A program made the position numbers and the translations under genes. From Dictyostelium discoideum (taxonomy: Eukaryota), in contig CM000152.2 of the NCBI GenBank assembly GCA_000004695.1, forward strand, positions 1,216,001-1,280,000: a DNA stretch of 64,000 nt, read 5' to 3'. The notes below the pieces were generated by a model that had not been told where the DNA came from, did no database searches, and saw only the letters and a program-made list of their open reading frames with translations. Positions 13,686-34,768 of this stretch are shown here, piece by piece (the stretch's first letter is position 1; each line of letters begins with the position of its first letter).

Positions 13686-13925
13686 AATTTAGGGAAAAAT
13701 GATTGGTTTGAAAAAAATCCACACATGGTTTAAAAAAAAAAAAAAAATAAAAAATAAATAAAAAATAAAAAAAAATAACAAAATAAAATATCCTAATCAA
13801 ATGATTGGTTTGAAAAAAGTCCACACATGGTTTTAAAAAAAAAAATAATTTTTAATGTCTAAAGTAGGTACATAATACTTTTTTTCTTTTTTTTTTAAAC
13901 CATGTGTGGACTTTAATAAAAAAGG
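13686..13925. repeat. three copies of (A/G)TCCACACATGGTTT(T)AAAAAAA (two direct, one inverted); the direct copies extend 5' as ATGATTGGTTTGAAAAAA
   Basis: Copy 1 at 13691-13730 (+), copy 2 at 13801-13845 (+), inverted copy at about 13890-13920. Lies between the 3' end of the 9451-13450 gene and the ATG at 14143. Confidence 0.7.
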
Positions 13926-16002: not shown

Positions 16003-19000
16003 TTATTGAATTTTATAAACTGTTTTCATGAATTTTAATAATTGAATATCTTGTTTTGTTAAATCTTCAGACCAACCTTCTTTAAGAGCATCCAAAGATT
16101 CACGAGTGATTTTAGACATCCATTGTTTTTTATCATCAAAGTGTCTGTAAATTGTAGTTTTAGTGTTGTTATCATCGATGGCAACAGAGACGACATCATC
16201 TTTTTTGGCGAGGGTAACATCTTTTTCGTTGAGTTTAATACCAATGACTTTACCAACATCAGCGCAATTTGATTCTGGTACACAAATTGGAGTACCAATA
16301 CGAAGAGTACCTTCTTTAACACGAACACCAACAAGAATTGGATTTGAATTTCTGAAAACGTTAGTAACCTCCAAAATACATGGCCAAACACAGATACTAG
16401 CGGTTTCAGCACGAAGTTTCTCTTTGATAGCACCGAAATGTTTCTTTAATTTCTCCTCGAATAAATAGATTGTCTCATCAGAGAGAACTTGAACTTTCAT
16501 TTCATTGGCGGCTTGAATGGCAGATTCTTCAATCTTTACATCGAAAGCCAAGAGAATTGCGTATTTTGGATCCTTATCTAACATGATACTTGCGTTCATA
16601 ATGTGTTTCTTGTGAACTGGACCAATGGCGACATTGGCGACTGGAATCTTGATCTTTTTGAGGAAATTTAAAAAGGCTTCCAAAGAACCAAGAGTAGAGG
16701 CTTGAACAGACACACCAATACCAGAGGTTTCGACATCATTGAGTACAGAATCGACTTCACGTTTAGCTTCGGCTCTAATCTTTTCGATATCGTCATTTGG
16801 ACCAACGACATGAAGTGAAGTACCTGGAACAGCTTTTTCAAGGCCTGGTGCAACGATTTTAATACCCATGGCAGCACGAATACTCTTATGATTGATGAAT
16901 TGTGATTTAACACGAGATTCACGAAGTGGTGGTGGAGTGAGTAAAGAACGAATAGAAGTTTCAATTGGACCATTGAAACCGGATACTACAATCTTATCAC
17001 CTTCATTCAAAGTACCATTTACCAAGACAACATCAATGGTTGTACCAAAACCTTCGATGACTTTAACTTCCAAGAGTGTACATTGGAGTTGATTTGTGAA
17101 TTCTACTTTATCAAGCATTAACTTTTGCATCAATTGAATGACTACCAACATTAAATCTGAAATACCTTCACCAGTGTTGGCAGAGGTTGGTACGAGAGAA
17201 ACGTATTTTCTATGATCTTTATTACGCCAGTAGAGTTCAGCATTCAATTCTTGACCGGCCAAAGCTGCAATGATATCCTTAACTTTGTAATCAAATTCTT
17301 GAGCAGCAGATTTTGATTGAATCTTGTAGGCTTCTTTAAAGTCTGTATTTACACATGGCTTCCAATCGTAAATTCTATCGACTTTATTTAAGGCAACAAT
17401 GAATGGTGTTTTTCTCATACGTAAGAGATTGATGGACTCTAAGGTTTGAGCTTGTAAACCATGCATAATATCAATGACTAAAATTGCCAAATCACAAAGA
17501 CCTGAACCTCTTGAACGTAAATTGTTGAAAGATTCATGACCTGGTGTATCAATGAGTAAGAGACCTGGTAATTTAAAGTCCATTTTAATCTTTTCAGCAA
17601 ATGATTTGGTTTGTTCTTTAATTGCATCGACTGGAATAAAAGAGGCACCAATTTGTTGGGTGATACCACGTGCTTCACCACCTTGAACGTTGGTATTACG
17701 AATTTTATCCAAAAGACTTGTCTTACCTGTATCGACATGACCTAAAATACAAATGATTGGTGAACGATATGATTTATCTGCAAAGGTTGTAGTTGGATCT
17801 GTAGTTGGAATGAGTGCTGCTGCGGCTGCTGCTGCGGCTGCTTTTGCTTTCTTCTTTTCCTCTTTTGCTGCTAATCTCTGTGCTTCCTCTTCCTCCTCTT
17901 TTCTCTTGGCCTCCTCTTCCTTCTTCTTTTGAATCTCTTCAACGGTTTCATAATCATCATTATCCCAACTATCCATAACCTCAACTACGTCGTCCTTTGG
18001 TGCTGATGTTGGTTCTTCAATCTTTAATTTTTCGACTGATTCTGTAATACTTGAGACTTGATTTTGTTTTTTACCTCCACTCTTTGTTTTATTTGTTGAT
18101 TTTTCTTTCTTTTCACCGACTGCTGAAATGTTTACACCCAATTTTGCTAATTTTGCCATTCTATCAGCTTCGGCGGCTGCGCCAGCTTGTTTCTCTTTCT
18201 TTTCTGCTCTCTTTTTAGAGTTTTCAATTGACTTTAATCTTGCTTTTTCATCATCAATAATCTTTTGTTCAGCAGCACGTTTCTTCTCTTCCTCTTCTCT
18301 TATACGTTTTTCCTCCTTTTCACGTGCAATTCTTTCTTCTTCTTGTCTTTGTTTTAATAAAAATCCACTCAATACCTCTGGTTCCTCTGGTTTCTTTGGT
18401 GCTGGTTTTTTAGCTTGTTGTTTTGCTGCTGATGGTTTTGCTGCTGGTGGTTTTTTGGCATTATTTTTTTTATTATTATTATTTTGTGTTGGTTTGGTTG
18501 GTTTCTCTTCTTCCTCTGATGATGATGATTCTTCTTCACTTTCAGAAGATGATTCAACAGCTGCTGCTTTTTTAGCTGGTGCTTTTTTATTTTGTTTTGC
18601 AGCTGGTTTTGATGGTTTCTTTTTTGTGTCCTCTTCAGATGATGATTCTTCAGATTCTGATTCACTCTCTTCTGATGATGATTCTACAACTGGTTTCTTT
18701 TTATTATTATTATTATTGGTTGGTGCTACTTTCTTTGATTGTTTTGCAGCTGGTTTTGATGGTTTCTTTTTAGTATCTTCTTCAGATGATTCTTCAGATT
18801 CTGATTCACTCTCTTCTTCTTCTGATGATGATGATTCTACAACTGGTTTCTTTTTATTATTGGTTGGTGCTACCTTTTTTGATTGTTTAGCAGCTGGTTT
18901 TGATGGTTTCTTTTGAACTTCTTCTTCAGATGATGATTCTTCAGATTCTGATGATGATTCATCTACTGGTGCAAATTTAGAAGTTGGTTTTTTTTTTGAA

Positions 19001-24716: not shown

Positions 24717-26542
<1,826 letters not shown>

Positions 26543-26816: not shown

Positions 26817-27061
26817 GAAATTAAAAATAAGACACTGTTGTGAAAAAAAAAAAAATTATTTCGAAAATTTTTTATATTTATAAAATTTCATCACTTCCAT
26901 TGTGGATCATTTGATAAAAATAATTAATCGAAATAATCACCCGTTTTTTTTTGTACATATAATTCCAACACCCAAAATAATATAAATATATATAAATTAA
27001 ATTAGATTAAATCAAATCAAATCAAAATCAAATATAATAAAATAAAATAAAATAAAATAAA

Positions 27062-27559
27062 ATGGTAAATTATCTTATGTATATTTTTTTTTTTTTTTTT
27101 TACATAGAATAAAATAGAAGCATTAGTACCAAAAGCTTTTTATATAAAAAGTGGGATCAATAAAACTAATCTTTTTTTTTTTTATTTACATAGAGCAAAA
27201 TAGAAGCATTAGCACCAAAACCTTTTTTATATGATTTAAAAGGTAAAAAGATAGCAGTTCGTTTAAAGTGGGGTGGTATGGAATATCGTGGTATTTTAGC
27301 ATCAGTTGATAGTTATATGAATTTACAAGTATGATTCAAACTTTATTTATTCATTTTTTCAATATTATTATAATATCTATATAATACTAATTTAATTTCT
27401 ATTTTTAATTTTAATTTTTAGTTAGCAGCAACAGAAGAATGGATAGATGGCGCAAATAAAGGTCCATTAGGTGAAGTTTTAATTAGATGTAATAATGTTT
27501 TATTTGTTAGAGGAATTGATGACGAGCAACAACAATCACAACAACAACAACAAGAATAA
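27062..27559 (+). CDS. snrpF: small nuclear ribonucleoprotein Sm-F, 3 exons: 27062..27064, 27194..27328, 27422..27559
   Basis: The ATG is immediately followed by a GTAAAT donor. Exon 2 (after ACATAG) and exon 3 (after TTTTTAG) give [46 protein letters not shown]|[38 protein letters not shown]..., close to human SmF ([46 protein letters not shown]...[16 protein letters not shown]). Confidence 0.75.
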
Positions 27560-27678
27560 ATTTAAATAATATCAATAATAATAGATAGTAATACTTTAAT
27601 GGGTTTTTTTATTTATTTTATTTTATTTCATTTCATTTCATTTCATTTTATTTTTTATTTATTTTATTTTATTTTATT

Positions 27679-28853
27679 TTATTTATCTCTTTTATAAATT
27701 TTTGATAATATTTTTAAAAATACGCTTGGAGGTAAATAAATACAAGTGGTTTTAATTTTATCTATTAAAAAATTGTAACTTGTATTTTCATAATCTTTGA
27801 AAATTTTTTCAAGATTAATTTCTTTATAAATCTTTTTTACAATTTCAACATCAGTTGGATTATCGAAACCATAATGTTTTTTTAATAAATTGATTTGGTC
27901 TGGAGTACCATTGAGAATTGCTTGACAAATCATCCATGAACATTTATTCTCTTCAATATCTCTACCGATTTTACCAAATACTTCTGGTGAACCATAACAA
28001 TCTAAGAAATCATCTTGAACTTGAAAATATACACCCATTGGTAATAAAATATCTTTTGCTGTTGTAAATGCTTGTTCATGGTTTATTTTGGACATTAACA
28101 TTGCTAGTGCAACTGGAAAAAAAAATGAATAATATGCTGTTTTATATTCAGTAATTCTAGTATGACTATAAAAAATAAAATTAATTAATCACACAGACAC
28201 ACATATGTTAATTAAATCTAAAACATATTAATAATAATAAAAATAATAATAATAATTATAAATACAAACTTTTTTAAATTAATTGATGAGAAATCACCTC
28301 TAATTGGTTGAGTTGTTAAATCTAATAATTGACCTAATTGAGTTTGAAATCCGGTTTTATGGAATAATTCTACAATATTTAAATAGTAGGATTCATTTTT
28401 AAAGTATTTTTCAAGTAAAATAAAAACACATGATTCAATTATAAAGGAATCATTAATTGCAGCTAAACCAACTTCTTGATCAGAGTTTGGTCTCTTTTGT
28501 TTATACCAACATGGTTTACCCCTTCTTTTTAGTGACTGATCCATTATATCATCAGAGACCAAATAGCATGCTTGAAATATTTCAACACACCAACCCAATG
28601 TTTGGGCTTGGAAAATTTCATGTCTTGTTAGAGCTCTACCTTCATTTAATGATTCCAATGATTCAAGTACACTAATTCCTCTATTCATTTTTCCACCTGT
28701 TGAATTTGCTTTTATCACGGTTTCAATCCAGTGGATTGATTCTTTTGGAAAATCAATCTTTTCCAATTCCTTTTTAATTTCATTTAATAAAATTGGGAAC
28801 AAATTAGCAAATTCTTCCAAAACTTCTTTATCATTCTTTTTCAAATTATTCAT
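27679..28853 (-). CDS. farnesyl diphosphate synthase paralog (about 356 aa), 2 exons: complement(27679..28165, 28270..28853)
   Basis: GGKMNRG, first Asp-rich motif LVSDDIMD and second Asp-rich motif FQVQDDFLD are all present. The GTTTGT donor at 28269-28268 and TTTTATAG acceptor at 28173-28166 were chosen because they keep ...GDFSSINLKN|HTRITEYKTAYYSFFFPVALAM... collinear with the neighbouring paralog and the FPPS family. ATG 28853-28851 verified. Confidence 0.8.
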
Positions 28854-32347: not shown

Positions 32348-34768
32348 AAACAACAAAAACAAAATTTACAAACAAACTCACAAAGACAAGAACAACCAAA
32401 ATTTAAATCATTATTAGATAATGATGGTATATTTTTTGAACAATCAACATTAACTGAAAAAATATTAGCCAAAATGGTTAAAAGAAGAGGTTCAGTTTTA
32501 ATCGATGATCCAGCCAAAATGAAAAGGGAGATGATTATCGAATCATCTACAATTATTCTTCAATCATTCTTTAGAATGATCCATCAAAGAAAAATATATC
32601 AAAGAACAATTAAAGAAAACAAAGAGAGATTGGAAGCTGAACGCCTCGAAAAAGAGAGATTAGAAGCTGAACGCCTCGAAAAAGAGAAATTAGAAGCTGA
32701 ACGTTTGGAAAAAGAGAAATTGGAAGCTGAACGTTTAGAAAAGGAGAGGTTAGAAGCTGAACGTTTTGAAAAAGAGAGATTAGAATCTGAACGTCTCGAA
32801 AAAGAGAGATTAGAAGCTGAACGTCTCGAAAAAGAAAAATTAGAGGCTGAACGTTTGGAAAAAGAGAAATTAGAAGCTGAACGTCTCGAAAAAGAGAGAT
32901 TGGAAGCTGAACGTCTCGAAAAAGAGAGATTAGAAGCTGAACGTCTCGAAAAAGAAAAATTAGAAGCTGAACGTTTAGAAAAAGAGAAATTAGAAGCTGA
33001 ACGTTTGGAAAAAGAGAAATTAGAAGCTGAACGTCTCGAAAAAGAGAGATTAGAGGCTGAACGTTTGGAAAAAGAGAAATTAGAAGCTGAACGTTTAGAA
33101 AAAGAGAGATTAGAAGCTGAACGTCTCGAAAAAGAAAAATTAGAAGCTGAACGTTTGGAAAAAGAAAGAATTGAAAATGAAATATTGGAAGCTGAACGTT
33201 TGGAAAGATTGGAAATGGAAAAAATTGAAATTGAAAGATTGGAAAAACAACGTTTACAAGAGGAACAAATCAAAGAAAAAGAAATGAAAAGATTAGAGAA
33301 AGAAAAAAGATTAGAGCACCAAAAGGAATTGGAAAGACTCGATAGAGAAAGAATAAGAGCCGAACGTTTGGAAAAAGAAAGATTGGAGGCTGAGCGCCTA
33401 GAAAAAGAGAGACTTGTAATAAAGAAATTAAAAAAAGAAAAAGAGATTCAATTAGAAAATGAAAGATTACAATCACTTAAACAAAAACAAAAACAAGAAG
33501 AAGAAGAAGAGGAAGAAGAAGAAGAAGAGGAAGAAGGAGAAGAAGAAGATGATGATGATGAAATTGAAGAAGAAGAAGAGGAAGAACAAAAATCAAATGT
33601 AGAAGAGGGAGAAGAAGAAGAAGAAGAAGAGGAAGAAGAAGATGATGATGAGATTAAACAAGAAGAAGAAGAAGAGGAAGAGGAAGAGGAAGATTCAATA
33701 ATAACTCCAAAAAATTCATCAATAATTAAAGAGGAGGTTACATCAGATATTGAAGAATTAGAAACTGATACATCATTTCAATATTCATCAGCCAACTCTT
33801 CAATGATGACTGCTGATCAAGATGAGGAAGAAGAGGATAAGGATGATAAAAAGAAGAATGAGTCATCAAAAGGTGTAACAAAAACTCATAAAGTTGATGA
33901 TCCAAAAGTATTATCAACAAAATCTTCAACTTTGGCAGCTACTTCCACAAGTAGACAATCTACATTACCAAAAACAACTATTACATCACCAATCAATTCA
34001 TCCTTTTCAAAGAAATCGCCAACTTTATCCACAACTGAAATTGATAGTAAATGGAAAGCAAAAATTGAGTCAATAAAATCAAAAACAACCACTGCATCAC
34101 CAACAACAACATCAACAAAAACTTCACCAACAACAACAACAAAAACAAAAACATCTCCAACAACAAATACATCACCAGTTTTAAAAAGTTCAACTGGTTT
34201 AATTTCAACCCCTCGTGTGATAATGACAAGATCAAAAACAGTTGCTCCACTTCCAGATAAGATTGGTTCTTCAGTTCTTTCAACAAAGAAAAGACCACTT
34301 CAATCTCCTGATACCCAATTGGAAGATCCAAATAAAGTCCAAAGGACCTCAACCAATTTGGCAGCATCAACTAACTTGGCAACAGCATCAATTGAAGAGA
34401 AAAGAAAAAAATTGATCGATTTACAAAATTTAAAGAAAAAAATTACAGAGAAAAGTGTAAATCCTACCACTACCACTACCACCACCAATACTACTCCCAC
34501 TAATAATACGACTACAAAGACAGTTTCTCCAATTCCATCACCAACTTTAACTTCATCAGTTGGCACCAAATCAAAATCTATTCCACCAATTAGTATCACA
34601 TCTAATGCTACAACAACTTCAAATAGATCAACTGCCAGCACACTTTCAACTGTAAAAAGACCAATTGTCAGAAAAACAGCAACAAATCCAAGCTTGGTTT
34701 CTTCAAAAGGTTCTCTCAAAGAACCAATTCCAAAGACTTCATCAACTTCAAAGAAATCAACAAAATAA
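32051..34768 (+). CDS. hypothetical protein (905 aa) with about 17 tandem 11-aa LEAERLEKE(K/R) repeats, poly-E acidic block and Ser/Thr-rich C-terminal half
   Basis: Single ORF, ATG 32051 verified, TAA 34766-34768. Encoded by a 33-bp tandem DNA repeat 32629-33180. Basic IQ-like segment [15 protein letters not shown] precedes the repeats. Confidence 0.75.
32629..33180 (+). repeat. 33-bp coding tandem repeat (about 17 copies) GAAGCTGAACGyyTsGAAAAAGArArATTrGAA encoding LEAERLEKE(K/R)
   Basis: Near-perfect tandem units are visible line after line. Third-position variation (CGCCTC/CGTCTC/CGTTTG) suggests purifying selection on the peptide. Confidence 0.9.

What the first reader, a model, noticed from the sequence alone, without database searches (positions are those of the whole stretch)
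27065..27240. Intronic decoy: partial tandem duplication of the snrpF exon-2 acceptor and exon start
Intron 1 of the Sm-F gene contains an about 48-bp near-copy (27096-27150: T-run + TACATAG|AATAAAATAGAAGCATTAGTACCAAAAGCTTTTTATAT) of the genuine acceptor and beginning of exon 2 (27176-27240: T-run + TACATAG|AGCAAAATAGAAGCATTAGCACCAAAACCTTTTTTATAT). It is about 92% identical. Using the upstream copy would yield a truncated peptide ending in a stop within about 30 codons. A duplicated polypyrimidine tract and AG inside an intron of a core spliceosomal protein gene is an unusual arrangement. It could be a regulated or unproductive alternative 3' splice site (an autoregulation-style decoy) or a recent slippage scar.
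Basis: seen in the sequence. Interest (0 to 1): 0.55.

Follow-up and report, generated by a model that had tools for sequence, protein, structure and literature searches.

The report
Dead exon-start copy inside Sm-F intron
Intron 1 of the Dictyostelium discoideum Sm-F gene really does hold a decaying copy of the acceptor and start of exon 2, but it is a species-specific insertion placed where the spliceosome should ignore it, so it is most likely a harmless scar and not a regulatory decoy.

Summary
The repeat is real. Window 27083-27145 matches 27169-27232 at 57 of 64 columns (89%); without the T-run the score is 63 against 17.2 +/- 2.7 in 2,000 shuffles. It lies in intron 1 (27065-27193) of the annotated 91-aa Sm-F gene, whose exon 1 is only the ATG.

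The regulatory reading is not supported:
- **Not conserved.** The copy is absent from D. dimigraforme, which is close enough for promoter and introns to align, and from D. purpureum, Heterostelium album and Tieghemostelium lacteum.
- **Insertion.** Against D. dimigraforme it is a ~50-nt insertion between an apparently ancestral T-run and the conserved branch block.
- **No branch site.** The only ACTAAT motif (27165-27170) lies downstream of the decoy AG and 24 nt upstream of the real one. The decoy intron would be 43 nt.
- **Decaying.** The copy has a frameshift and has lost the invariant Pro of PKPF, but keeps the ancestral Asn-2 codon.

Best reading: an old, neutral, lineage-specific pseudo-acceptor and pseudo-exon. 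No RNA data could be examined.

The parts
27062..27064 (+). Sm-F exon 1 coding part: the ATG only
   Evidence: ATG followed by GTAAAT. The spliced model translates to the annotated 91-aa AX4 protein, a 100% match to P0001. The same ATG|GTAA structure is found in four other dictyostelids.
27065..27193 (+). Intron 1 (129 nt), phase 0, GTAAAT...ACATAG
   Evidence: The orthologous introns are 109, 117, 84 and 56 nt.
27084..27101 (+). Upstream T18 run, probably ancestral intron sequence and not part of the copied segment
   Evidence: TRF reports it. It aligns to the (TA)n-T9CTTCTTT stretch of the D. dimigraforme intron. Removing only 27102-27150 gives a better interspecies alignment (score 78.8) than also removing the T-run (46.8). 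This is low-complexity sequence, so the assignment is only probable.
27102..27107 (+). Pseudo-acceptor ACATAG (AG at 27106-27107), identical to the real acceptor hexamer
27108..27145 (+). Pseudo-exon: decayed copy of the first 39 nt of exon 2. It keeps the ancestral AAT (Asn-2) codon and carries GCA>GTA, CCT>GCT (invariant Pro of PKPF) and a 1-T deletion that shifts the frame.
   Evidence: Alignment. Changes were polarised against D. dimigraforme, D. purpureum, H. album and T. lacteum.
27146..27164 (+). Spacer. AAAAAGTGG is of unknown origin. GATCAATAAA is orthologous to the D. dimigraforme intron block GATTGTTCAAATTAAA.
   Evidence: No significant similarity to exon 2 or to the 5' flank. Interspecies alignment.
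27165..27170 (+). ACTAAT, the only branch-site consensus in intron 1. The predicted branch A is 27169, 24 nt from the real 3' splice site and 105 nt from the 5' splice site.
   Evidence: It is conserved as AAAACTAAT in D. dimigraforme. ACTAAT is the commonest 3'-intron hexamer in D. discoideum (PMC2483917). The branch point has not been mapped experimentally.
27170..27187 (+). Polypyrimidine tract of the real acceptor (TCT12ATTT)
   Evidence: Read directly from the sequence. No AG occurs between 27151 and 27191.
27188..27193 (+). Genuine acceptor ACATAG (AG at 27192-27193)
27194..27328 (+). Exon 2. Its first 39 nt (27194-27232) are the source sequence of the copy. Codon 2 is derived, AGC (Ser).
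27329..27421 (+). Intron 2 (93 nt), with ACTAAT 31 nt from its acceptor
27422..27559 (+). Exon 3 through the TAA stop
   Evidence: LSM domain PF01423, E=1e-19.

Best explanation
The feature is a non-functional pseudo-acceptor plus pseudo-exon. In the D. discoideum lineage, after its split from D. dimigraforme, about 45-50 nt comprising the acceptor hexamer ACATAG and the first ~39 nt of Sm-F exon 2 was copied into intron 1. It landed next to a pre-existing T-run, upstream of the branch site. This lengthened the intron from roughly 66-80 nt to 129 nt.

The spliceosome should ignore the copy. [quoted passage not shown] The decoy AG would also define a 43-nt intron with no usable branch point. 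The copy has since drifted as ordinary intron sequence while the functional exon evolved on.

Shown: the repeat, its absence in relatives, its decay, and the signal geometry.
Inferred: non-use in RNA, neutrality, and the copying mechanism (template switching or slippage at the T-runs).
For: 1. The repeat is real: score 63 vs 17.2 +/- 2.7 in shuffles, 0 of 2,000 reaching it, and two exact pattern hits with 0 expected.
2. The gene model using the downstream AG equals the annotated AX4 protein, and it aligns over its whole N-terminus with orthologues MNKIEAL.PKPF....
3. The duplication test of intron 1 against acceptor plus exon 2 gives z=24.2 in D. discoideum and -1.0, -0.9 and 2.3 in D. purpureum, H. 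album and T. lacteum. D. dimigraforme intron 1 (109 nt) has no exon-like copy.
4. The anchored Ddis/Ddim alignment places a ~50-nt D. discoideum-specific insertion between the (TA)n-T-run and the conserved GAT..TCAA..TAAAACTAAT block. The locus is orthologous, with polyprenyl synthase downstream on the minus strand in both.
5. These introns are rich in indels: 34 gap columns against 73 aligned in intron 2, plus other 13-15-nt indels in intron 1. A 50-nt insertion is therefore not out of character.
6. In ten introns (i1 and i2 of five species), 9 have WCTRAY 13-37 nt from the 3' splice site. The 5'ss-to-branch-A distance there is 43-105 nt, and no intron has an AG between branch motif and acceptor. 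All six extra AGs of D. discoideum intron 1, including the decoy, lie upstream of ACTAAT.
7. The 43-nt decoy intron contains only TCTTAT, with its A 13 nt from the 5' splice site.
8. ACTAAT is the top D. discoideum branch-region hexamer, and the median intron is 103 nt (PMC2483917). [quoted passage not shown]
9. The copy shows no coding constraint: a frameshift, A8V, and P11A at a Pro invariant in all five species.
10. The copy keeps AAT=Asn-2 as in D. dimigraforme, D. purpureum and H. album, whereas the functional exon has derived AGC. The copy is therefore a fossil of the ancestral exon.
11. There is no special RNA structure (z=-0.15).
Against: - No transcript data could be examined, so low-level use of AG 27106-7, or an effect on splicing efficiency, is not excluded.
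- The decoy has a very strong T18 tract and an acceptor hexamer identical to the real one, so U2AF-type binding is plausible.
- The copy is still 89% identical despite a substitution load suggesting it is not young. The numbers are too small to tell drift from weak constraint or gene conversion.
- The branch point is predicted from a motif, not mapped.
- Only one close relative was available, so loss in D. dimigraforme instead of gain in D. discoideum cannot be strictly excluded.
- The minimum functional intron size in D. discoideum was not established here.
Confidence: 0.82

Rival explanations
1. Regulated unproductive alternative 3' splice site. The upstream AG is used in a fraction of transcripts and yields a mRNA with a premature stop that is degraded. 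Sm-F output is thereby tuned, as in SNRPB-type AS-NMD.
For: - A strong T18 tract plus the identical ACATAG acceptor.
- Use would create a stop after 32 codons.
- Core spliceosomal genes are known to autoregulate through PTC-containing alternative exons (PMC4109005).
- Competing 3' sites do occur in D. discoideum: 39 events among 4,246 EST loci (PMC2397502).
Against: - Absent in D. dimigraforme and three other dictyostelids, whereas known AS-NMD elements are highly conserved.
- No WCTRAY branch motif lies upstream of the decoy AG. The only YTNAY is 13 nt from the 5' splice site, and the intron would be 43 nt, against 56-129 nt for every orthologous intron 1 and a 103-nt species median.
- The predicted 32-aa product is not in the 15-billion-protein collection.
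Confidence: 0.04
2. A decoy that is never spliced. The T18-ACATAG element binds U2AF or a related factor upstream of the branch point and slows or modulates removal of intron 1 (decoy-exon or intron-retention style), as a D. discoideum-specific adjustment of Sm-F expression.
For: - The acceptor-like element is intact, with hexamer and +1 base identical to the real site.
- Intron retention is the main splice variation in D. discoideum (PMC2397502).
- Nothing here measures splicing efficiency.
Against: - It is lineage-specific, with no conservation test possible beyond its absence in relatives.
- A T-run at this place already exists in D. dimigraforme without the AG or exon copy.
- The exon-like part is decaying.
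- No structure signal.
- It is a more elaborate account than neutral insertion in an indel-rich intron.
Confidence: 0.08
3. Chance similarity in AT-rich low-complexity DNA, or an assembly artefact.
For: - The window is 23% GC and full of simple repeats.
- Part of the reported repeat, the T-run, is indeed low-complexity and probably not homologous by descent.
Against: - The non-T-run core scores 63 vs 17.2 +/- 2.7, with 0 of 2,000 shuffles reaching it.
- Only 4 loci in 64 kb have any comparable non-simple local repeat.
- The copies differ at 7 positions, which a collapsed or expanded assembly error would not produce.
Confidence: 0.01

Closest known systems
Internal (partial) gene duplication spanning an intron-exon junction. 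This is the class discussed for intron gain or extension by tandem genomic duplication (review PMC3443670, which cites Gao & Lynch 2009 and Hellsten et al. 2011).
   Same: - A short direct duplication inside one gene duplicates a splice signal.
- The mRNA is unchanged because the authentic pair of sites is still used.
- Former exon sequence becomes intronic and the intron grows (66-80 nt to 129 nt).
   Different: - It is not strictly tandem. The copy is separated from its source by the ancestral branch-site block and a 9-nt filler.
- No new intron is created and no AGGT pair is involved.
- An existing intron is merely extended upstream of its branch point.
- The Gao & Lynch paper itself could not be read here, so the comparison with its categories rests on my recollection.
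SNRPB (SmB/B') autoregulatory PTC-containing alternative exon, and AS-NMD of splicing factors in general (PMC4109005)
   Same: - A core Sm protein gene with an intronic element.
- If spliced in, the element would introduce a premature stop.
   Different: - The SNRPB element is a complete cassette exon with both splice sites. It is highly conserved across mammals and experimentally shown to respond to Sm levels.
- Here the element is absent from the nearest relative, lacks a branch site and a credible donor (AAA|GTGGGA), and shows decay.
Cryptic or pseudo 3' splice sites upstream of the branch point, outside the AG exclusion zone (PMC1431707)
   Same: - AGs upstream of the branch point are not selected against and are not used.
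- The zone from branch point to acceptor is AG-free (27151-27191 here).
[quoted passage not shown]
   Different: - Most such AGs are isolated dinucleotides. This one comes with a full acceptor hexamer, a long T-run and recognisable exon sequence, because it is a copy of the real site.
- The rule was established in mammals and is assumed here for Dictyostelium.

Membership tests
Sm-F / LSM-domain protein gene (host gene) | Encodes an LSM/Sm-fold domain and is orthologous to SNRPF | tested here: met
   PF01423, E=1e-19 at 70 bits against a 23.4-bit cutoff. 100% identical to the annotated D. discoideum AX4 small nuclear ribonucleoprotein F, Q54XP2.
AS-NMD autoregulatory element (SNRPB type) | Inclusion or use introduces a premature termination codon | tested here: met
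   In silico only: use of AG 27106-7 gives a stop after 32 codons.
AS-NMD autoregulatory element (SNRPB type) | High sequence conservation of the element across related species | tested here: not met
   Absent in D. dimigraforme. Duplication z-scores are -1.0, -0.9 and 2.3 in three other dictyostelids.
AS-NMD autoregulatory element (SNRPB type) | The element is actually spliced into a fraction of transcripts and responds to the factor's level or to NMD | not testable with these tools
   No RNA-seq or EST access. The predicted peptide is not in the protein collection. No literature on this gene's splicing was found.
Competing (alternative) 3' splice site | Polypyrimidine tract followed by AG | tested here: met
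   T18 followed by ACATAG, with a hexamer identical to the real acceptor.
Competing (alternative) 3' splice site | A usable branch point upstream of the AG, at workable distance from the 5' splice site | tested here: not met
   No WCTRAY lies in 27065-27101. The only YTNAY (TCTTAT) has its A 13 nt from the 5' splice site, against 43-105 nt in the ten family introns. The sole ACTAAT is downstream, at 27165-27170. This test is motif-based, not experimental.
Tandem genomic duplication across a splice junction | Two direct copies within one gene, the copy containing the intron-exon junction | tested here: met
   27102-27145 vs 27188-27232 match at 40 of 45 columns, and both contain ACATAG|A.
Tandem genomic duplication across a splice junction | Copies directly adjacent (head-to-tail unit with no unique spacer) | tested here: not met
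   The 23-nt spacer has no significant similarity to either flank (p=0.15 and 0.39). Part of it is orthologous to the ancestral intron.
Tandem genomic duplication across a splice junction | Coding sequence of the mature mRNA left unchanged | tested here: inconclusive
   The annotated protein and all orthologues fit the downstream-AG model, but no transcript was examined.

The most novel reading that the evidence does not exclude
The copy could be a D. discoideum-specific decoy 3' splice site. Its T18-ACATAG, upstream of the true branch point, would recruit U2AF-like factors non-productively, or be used at a low level to give an NMD substrate. Removal of the first intron of Sm-F, and hence Sm-F dosage, would then become sensitive to spliceosome availability. 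That would be a newly evolved autoregulatory loop in a core Sm gene, created in one step by junction duplication.
Probability: 0.05. Interest if true: 0.55.

Novelty: new member of a known kind. Interest (0 to 1): 0.15.

Why it matters
As a neutral scar it matters little for Sm-F biology. It has modest value in three ways:
- **Intron growth.** It is a clean, datable example of a short intron growing by capture of a copy of its own acceptor and exon start.
- **Natural test of splice-site choice.** A perfect acceptor hexamer with a longer T-run sits 86 nt upstream of the real acceptor, and by inference it is ignored because it lies upstream of the branch site.
- **Sequence fossil.** It preserves the ancestral Asn-2 codon, which shows that the Ser-2 of D. 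discoideum Sm-F is derived.

If the decoy were shown to be used or to modulate splicing, it would be a rare case of a newly born autoregulatory element in a core spliceosomal gene.

Tried and rejected
- **Strain-level or closer-species DNA.** Exact-product look-ups found nothing for the AX4 protein or for two neighbouring ORFs.
- **Collection scans.** Two metagenome scans and one prokaryote-genome scan with conserved exon patterns gave 0 hits.
- **Longer duplication.** I tested whether the duplication extended further into exon 2 with an internal deletion (shared AAAGTGGG). It is not significant (p=0.15).
- **Whole 5' end duplicated.** I tested whether the unit included the ATG and donor. It is not significant (p=0.39).
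- **RNA structure** across intron 1: none (z=-0.15).
- **Unanchored alignment.** The MAFFT alignment of the two species misplaced the ATG in low-complexity sequence. It was replaced by an anchored intron-only alignment.
- **Literature.** Nothing on this gene's splicing, and no figure for the minimum D. discoideum intron length. Gao & Lynch 2009 and the D. discoideum genome paper are not held.
- **Cassette-exon reading** (acceptor at 27107, donor at 27151 AAA|GTGGGA). Rejected: the donor is poor, it needs the same 43-nt intron, and the 43-nt exon shifts the frame.
- **Discarded data point.** My first coordinates for H. album intron 3 were wrong, so that row is ignored.

Full report
**Observation**

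The window is AT-rich (23% GC). The region is the Sm-F (snrpF) gene of Dictyostelium discoideum AX4.

The repeat finder reports 27083-27141 and 27169-27227 as a 59-nt direct repeat at 90% identity, 86 nt apart. A gapped alignment extends it to 27083-27145 vs 27169-27232, with 57 of 64 columns identical, 6 mismatches and one 1-T indel. Without the T-run, the core (ACATAG plus the exon-like part) matches at 40 of 45 columns. It scores 63, against 17.2 +/- 2.7 (maximum 31) in 2,000 dinucleotide-preserving shuffles. A degenerate pattern of the core hits exactly these two places in the window, with 0 expected. Only four loci in the 64 kb contain any non-simple local direct repeat of comparable quality. 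Identity is about 89%, not 92%.

**Gene model**

| Feature | Coordinates | Note |
|---|---|---|
| Exon 1 | 27062-27064 | ATG only |
| Intron 1 | 27065-27193 | 129 nt |
| Exon 2 | 27194-27328 | |
| Intron 2 | 27329-27421 | 93 nt |
| Exon 3 | 27422-27559 | ends in TAA |

This gives a 91-aa protein. It is 100% identical to the annotated AX4 small nuclear ribonucleoprotein F (P0001 / Q54XP2) and has an LSM domain (E=1e-19). The ATG|GTAA one-codon first exon is shared by D. dimigraforme, D. purpureum, Heterostelium album and Tieghemostelium lacteum.

**Splice-signal geometry**

- Intron 1 contains one branch-site consensus, ACTAAT at 27165-27170. Its predicted branch A (27169) is 24 nt from the real acceptor and 105 nt from the donor.
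- ACTAAT is the most frequent 3'-intron hexamer in D. discoideum (18.7% of 17,300 introns; median intron 103 nt, mean 143 nt; PMC2483917).
- I compared ten introns, i1 and i2 of five species. Nine have a WCTRAY motif 13-37 nt from the acceptor, and there the donor-to-branch distance is 43-105 nt. None of the ten has an AG between the branch motif and the acceptor.
- In D. discoideum intron 1, all six additional AGs (27106, 27116, 27119, 27125, 27134, 27150) lie upstream of ACTAAT, and 27151-27191 is AG-free.
- The decoy AG would define a 43-nt intron whose only YTNAY (TCTTAT) has its A 13 nt from the donor. That is shorter than every orthologous intron 1 (56-129 nt).
- Non-use of the decoy is an inference from this geometry. 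No RNA data could be examined.

**Comparative evidence**

The decisive comparison came from a cluster look-up, which revealed a D. dimigraforme orthologue (P0121, 108 aa, [12 protein letters not shown]...). Its locus (L004) is syntenic, with polyprenyl synthase downstream on the minus strand. It is close enough that non-coding DNA aligns: 88% identity in the promoter, 92% in intron 2 and 90% in the intron-1 branch-to-acceptor block, all over gap-free columns.

Its intron 1 is 109 nt and has no exon-like copy. An anchored alignment shows the following layout:

- D. discoideum: GTAAAT...(TA-rich)-T18-[ACATAG + pseudo-exon + AAAAAGTGG]-GATCAA-TAAAACTAAT-Py-ACATAG
- D. dimigraforme: GTAAAT...(TA)n-T9CTTCTTT-[nothing]-GATTGTTCAAATTAAAACTAAT-Py-AAATAG

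So there is a ~50-nt D. discoideum-specific insertion between a T-run that seems ancestral and the conserved branch block. Removing only 27102-27150 gives the best interspecies alignment (78.8), against 46.8 when the T-run is removed too. The polypyrimidine tract was therefore probably not duplicated, with the caveat that this is low-complexity sequence.

The formal duplication test is z=24.2 in D. discoideum, and -1.0, -0.9 and 2.3 in D. purpureum, H. album and T. lacteum. The introns differ by many other indels: 34 gap columns in intron 2, and 13-15-nt gaps in intron 1.

**Polarity and age**

| Site | Upstream copy | Functional exon | Relatives | Derived in |
|---|---|---|---|---|
| Codon 2 | AAT (Asn) | AGC (Ser) | AAT in D. 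dimigraforme, D. purpureum, H. album | Functional exon (two substitutions) |
| Codon 8 | GTA | GCA | C at second position in all relatives | Copy |
| Codon 11 | GCT | CCT | Pro in all five species (PKPF) | Copy |
| T-run in codons 12-13 | T5 | T6 | T6 in D. dimigraforme and D. purpureum | Copy (frameshift) |

These comparisons draw. The copy is thus a decaying fossil of the ancestral exon start and is under no coding constraint.

Its two substitutions in 39 nt (~5%) are of the order of the per-lineage non-coding divergence from D. dimigraforme (about 4-6%). It is probably old on a population time scale, not recent. The numbers are very small, so this is a rough inference.

**Origin**

The 23-nt spacer has no significant similarity to the sequence after the real copy (p=0.15) or before the upstream copy (p=0.39). 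Part of it is ancestral intron. The event was therefore not a clean head-to-tail duplication.

Two routes fit the structure:
- A template switch between the two T-runs of the intron, copying T-run/ACATAG/exon start and returning upstream of the branch block.
- A tandem duplication of branch block plus acceptor plus exon start, followed by T-run-mediated deletion.

I cannot tell them apart. The 9-nt AAAAAGTGG is unexplained.

**Function**

The autoregulatory-decoy idea resembles SNRPB. There, a PTC-containing alternative exon is highly conserved across mammals, has both splice sites, and responds to Sm levels (PMC4109005). Here the PTC criterion is met in silico. Conservation is not met, a usable branch site is not met, and use in RNA is untestable.

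Competing 3' sites are rare in D. discoideum ESTs (39 events in 4,246 loci; PMC2397502). The region has no special RNA fold (z=-0.15). The predicted 32-aa product is not in the protein collection.

I therefore rate a neutral, lineage-specific pseudo-acceptor and pseudo-exon at about 0.82. A never-spliced factor-binding decoy is about 0.08, a used AS-NMD site about 0.04, and chance or artefact about 0.01.

**Comparison with known kinds and verdict**

The closest known kind is an internal gene duplication across an intron-exon junction that extends an intron without changing the mRNA (review PMC3443670). This case differs in being non-adjacent to its source and in not creating a new intron. It is also a textbook-like cryptic acceptor lying outside the AG exclusion zone.

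It is a new instance of a known kind and of low interest (0.15). Junction-read counts, population genotyping, branch mapping and a deletion would settle the residual regulatory possibility.

**What led nowhere**

- Look-ups for other assemblies.
- Metagenome and prokaryote-genome scans.
- Literature on this gene's splicing and on the minimum intron length.
- Two papers that are not held.
- An unanchored alignment that misplaced the ATG.

Noticed in passing
window 13694-13851: A second two-copy non-simple local repeat: AAATGATTGGTTTGAAAAAA[A/G]TCCACACATGGTTT, each copy followed by an A-run, 102 nt apart, in what looks like non-coding DNA. It could be a duplicated promoter or regulatory element, or another neutral duplication.
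   Followed up: no
window 26974-27063 and 27607-27684: The Sm-F gene is bracketed by mutually reverse-complementary microsatellites. (AAAAT)~18 ends directly at the ATG, and (TTTTA)~15.6 lies just after the stop. D. dimigraforme also has an AAAAT-rich stretch before its ATG.
   Followed up: no
window 26855-26975 vs L004 2318-2432: An upstream non-coding block is 88% identical between D. discoideum and D. dimigraforme. It has long invariant stretches (TTTCGAA, ATTTCATCAC, GATCATTT, AATCACCC, TTTTTTGTACATATAATTCCAA), which are candidate promoter elements of Sm-F.
   Followed up: partly
window 27194-27196; 27527-27556; L004 2930-3020: Two protein-level changes. D. discoideum Sm-F has a derived Ser at residue 2, where D. 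dimigraforme, D. purpureum and H. album have Asn. Its C-terminal Gln-rich tail is much shorter than in D. dimigraforme (91 vs 108 aa), a typical CAA-repeat length change.
   Followed up: partly
L002 1373-1475: Heterostelium album Sm-F has a third intron (~103 nt, GTTAGT...AATAG) splitting LIR|CNN. It is absent from the four other dictyostelid genes, so it is an intron gain or loss within the family.
   Followed up: no
window 32616-33414 and 18580-18935: A long 30-nt-period array (GAAGCTGAACG[C/T]CTCGAAAAAGAGAGATTA..., apparently coding an E/R/L/K-rich repeat) and a 144-153-nt-period repeat. These are presumably repeat-containing protein genes.
   Followed up: no
window 24717-26541 (+) and 27679-28853 (-): The neighbours are an adenosine-deaminase (editase, A_deamin) domain gene upstream and a polyprenyl synthetase gene downstream on the opposite strand. 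The polyprenyl synthetase-Sm-F adjacency is conserved in D. purpureum and D. dimigraforme, and the A_deamin-Sm-F adjacency in H. album.
   Followed up: partly
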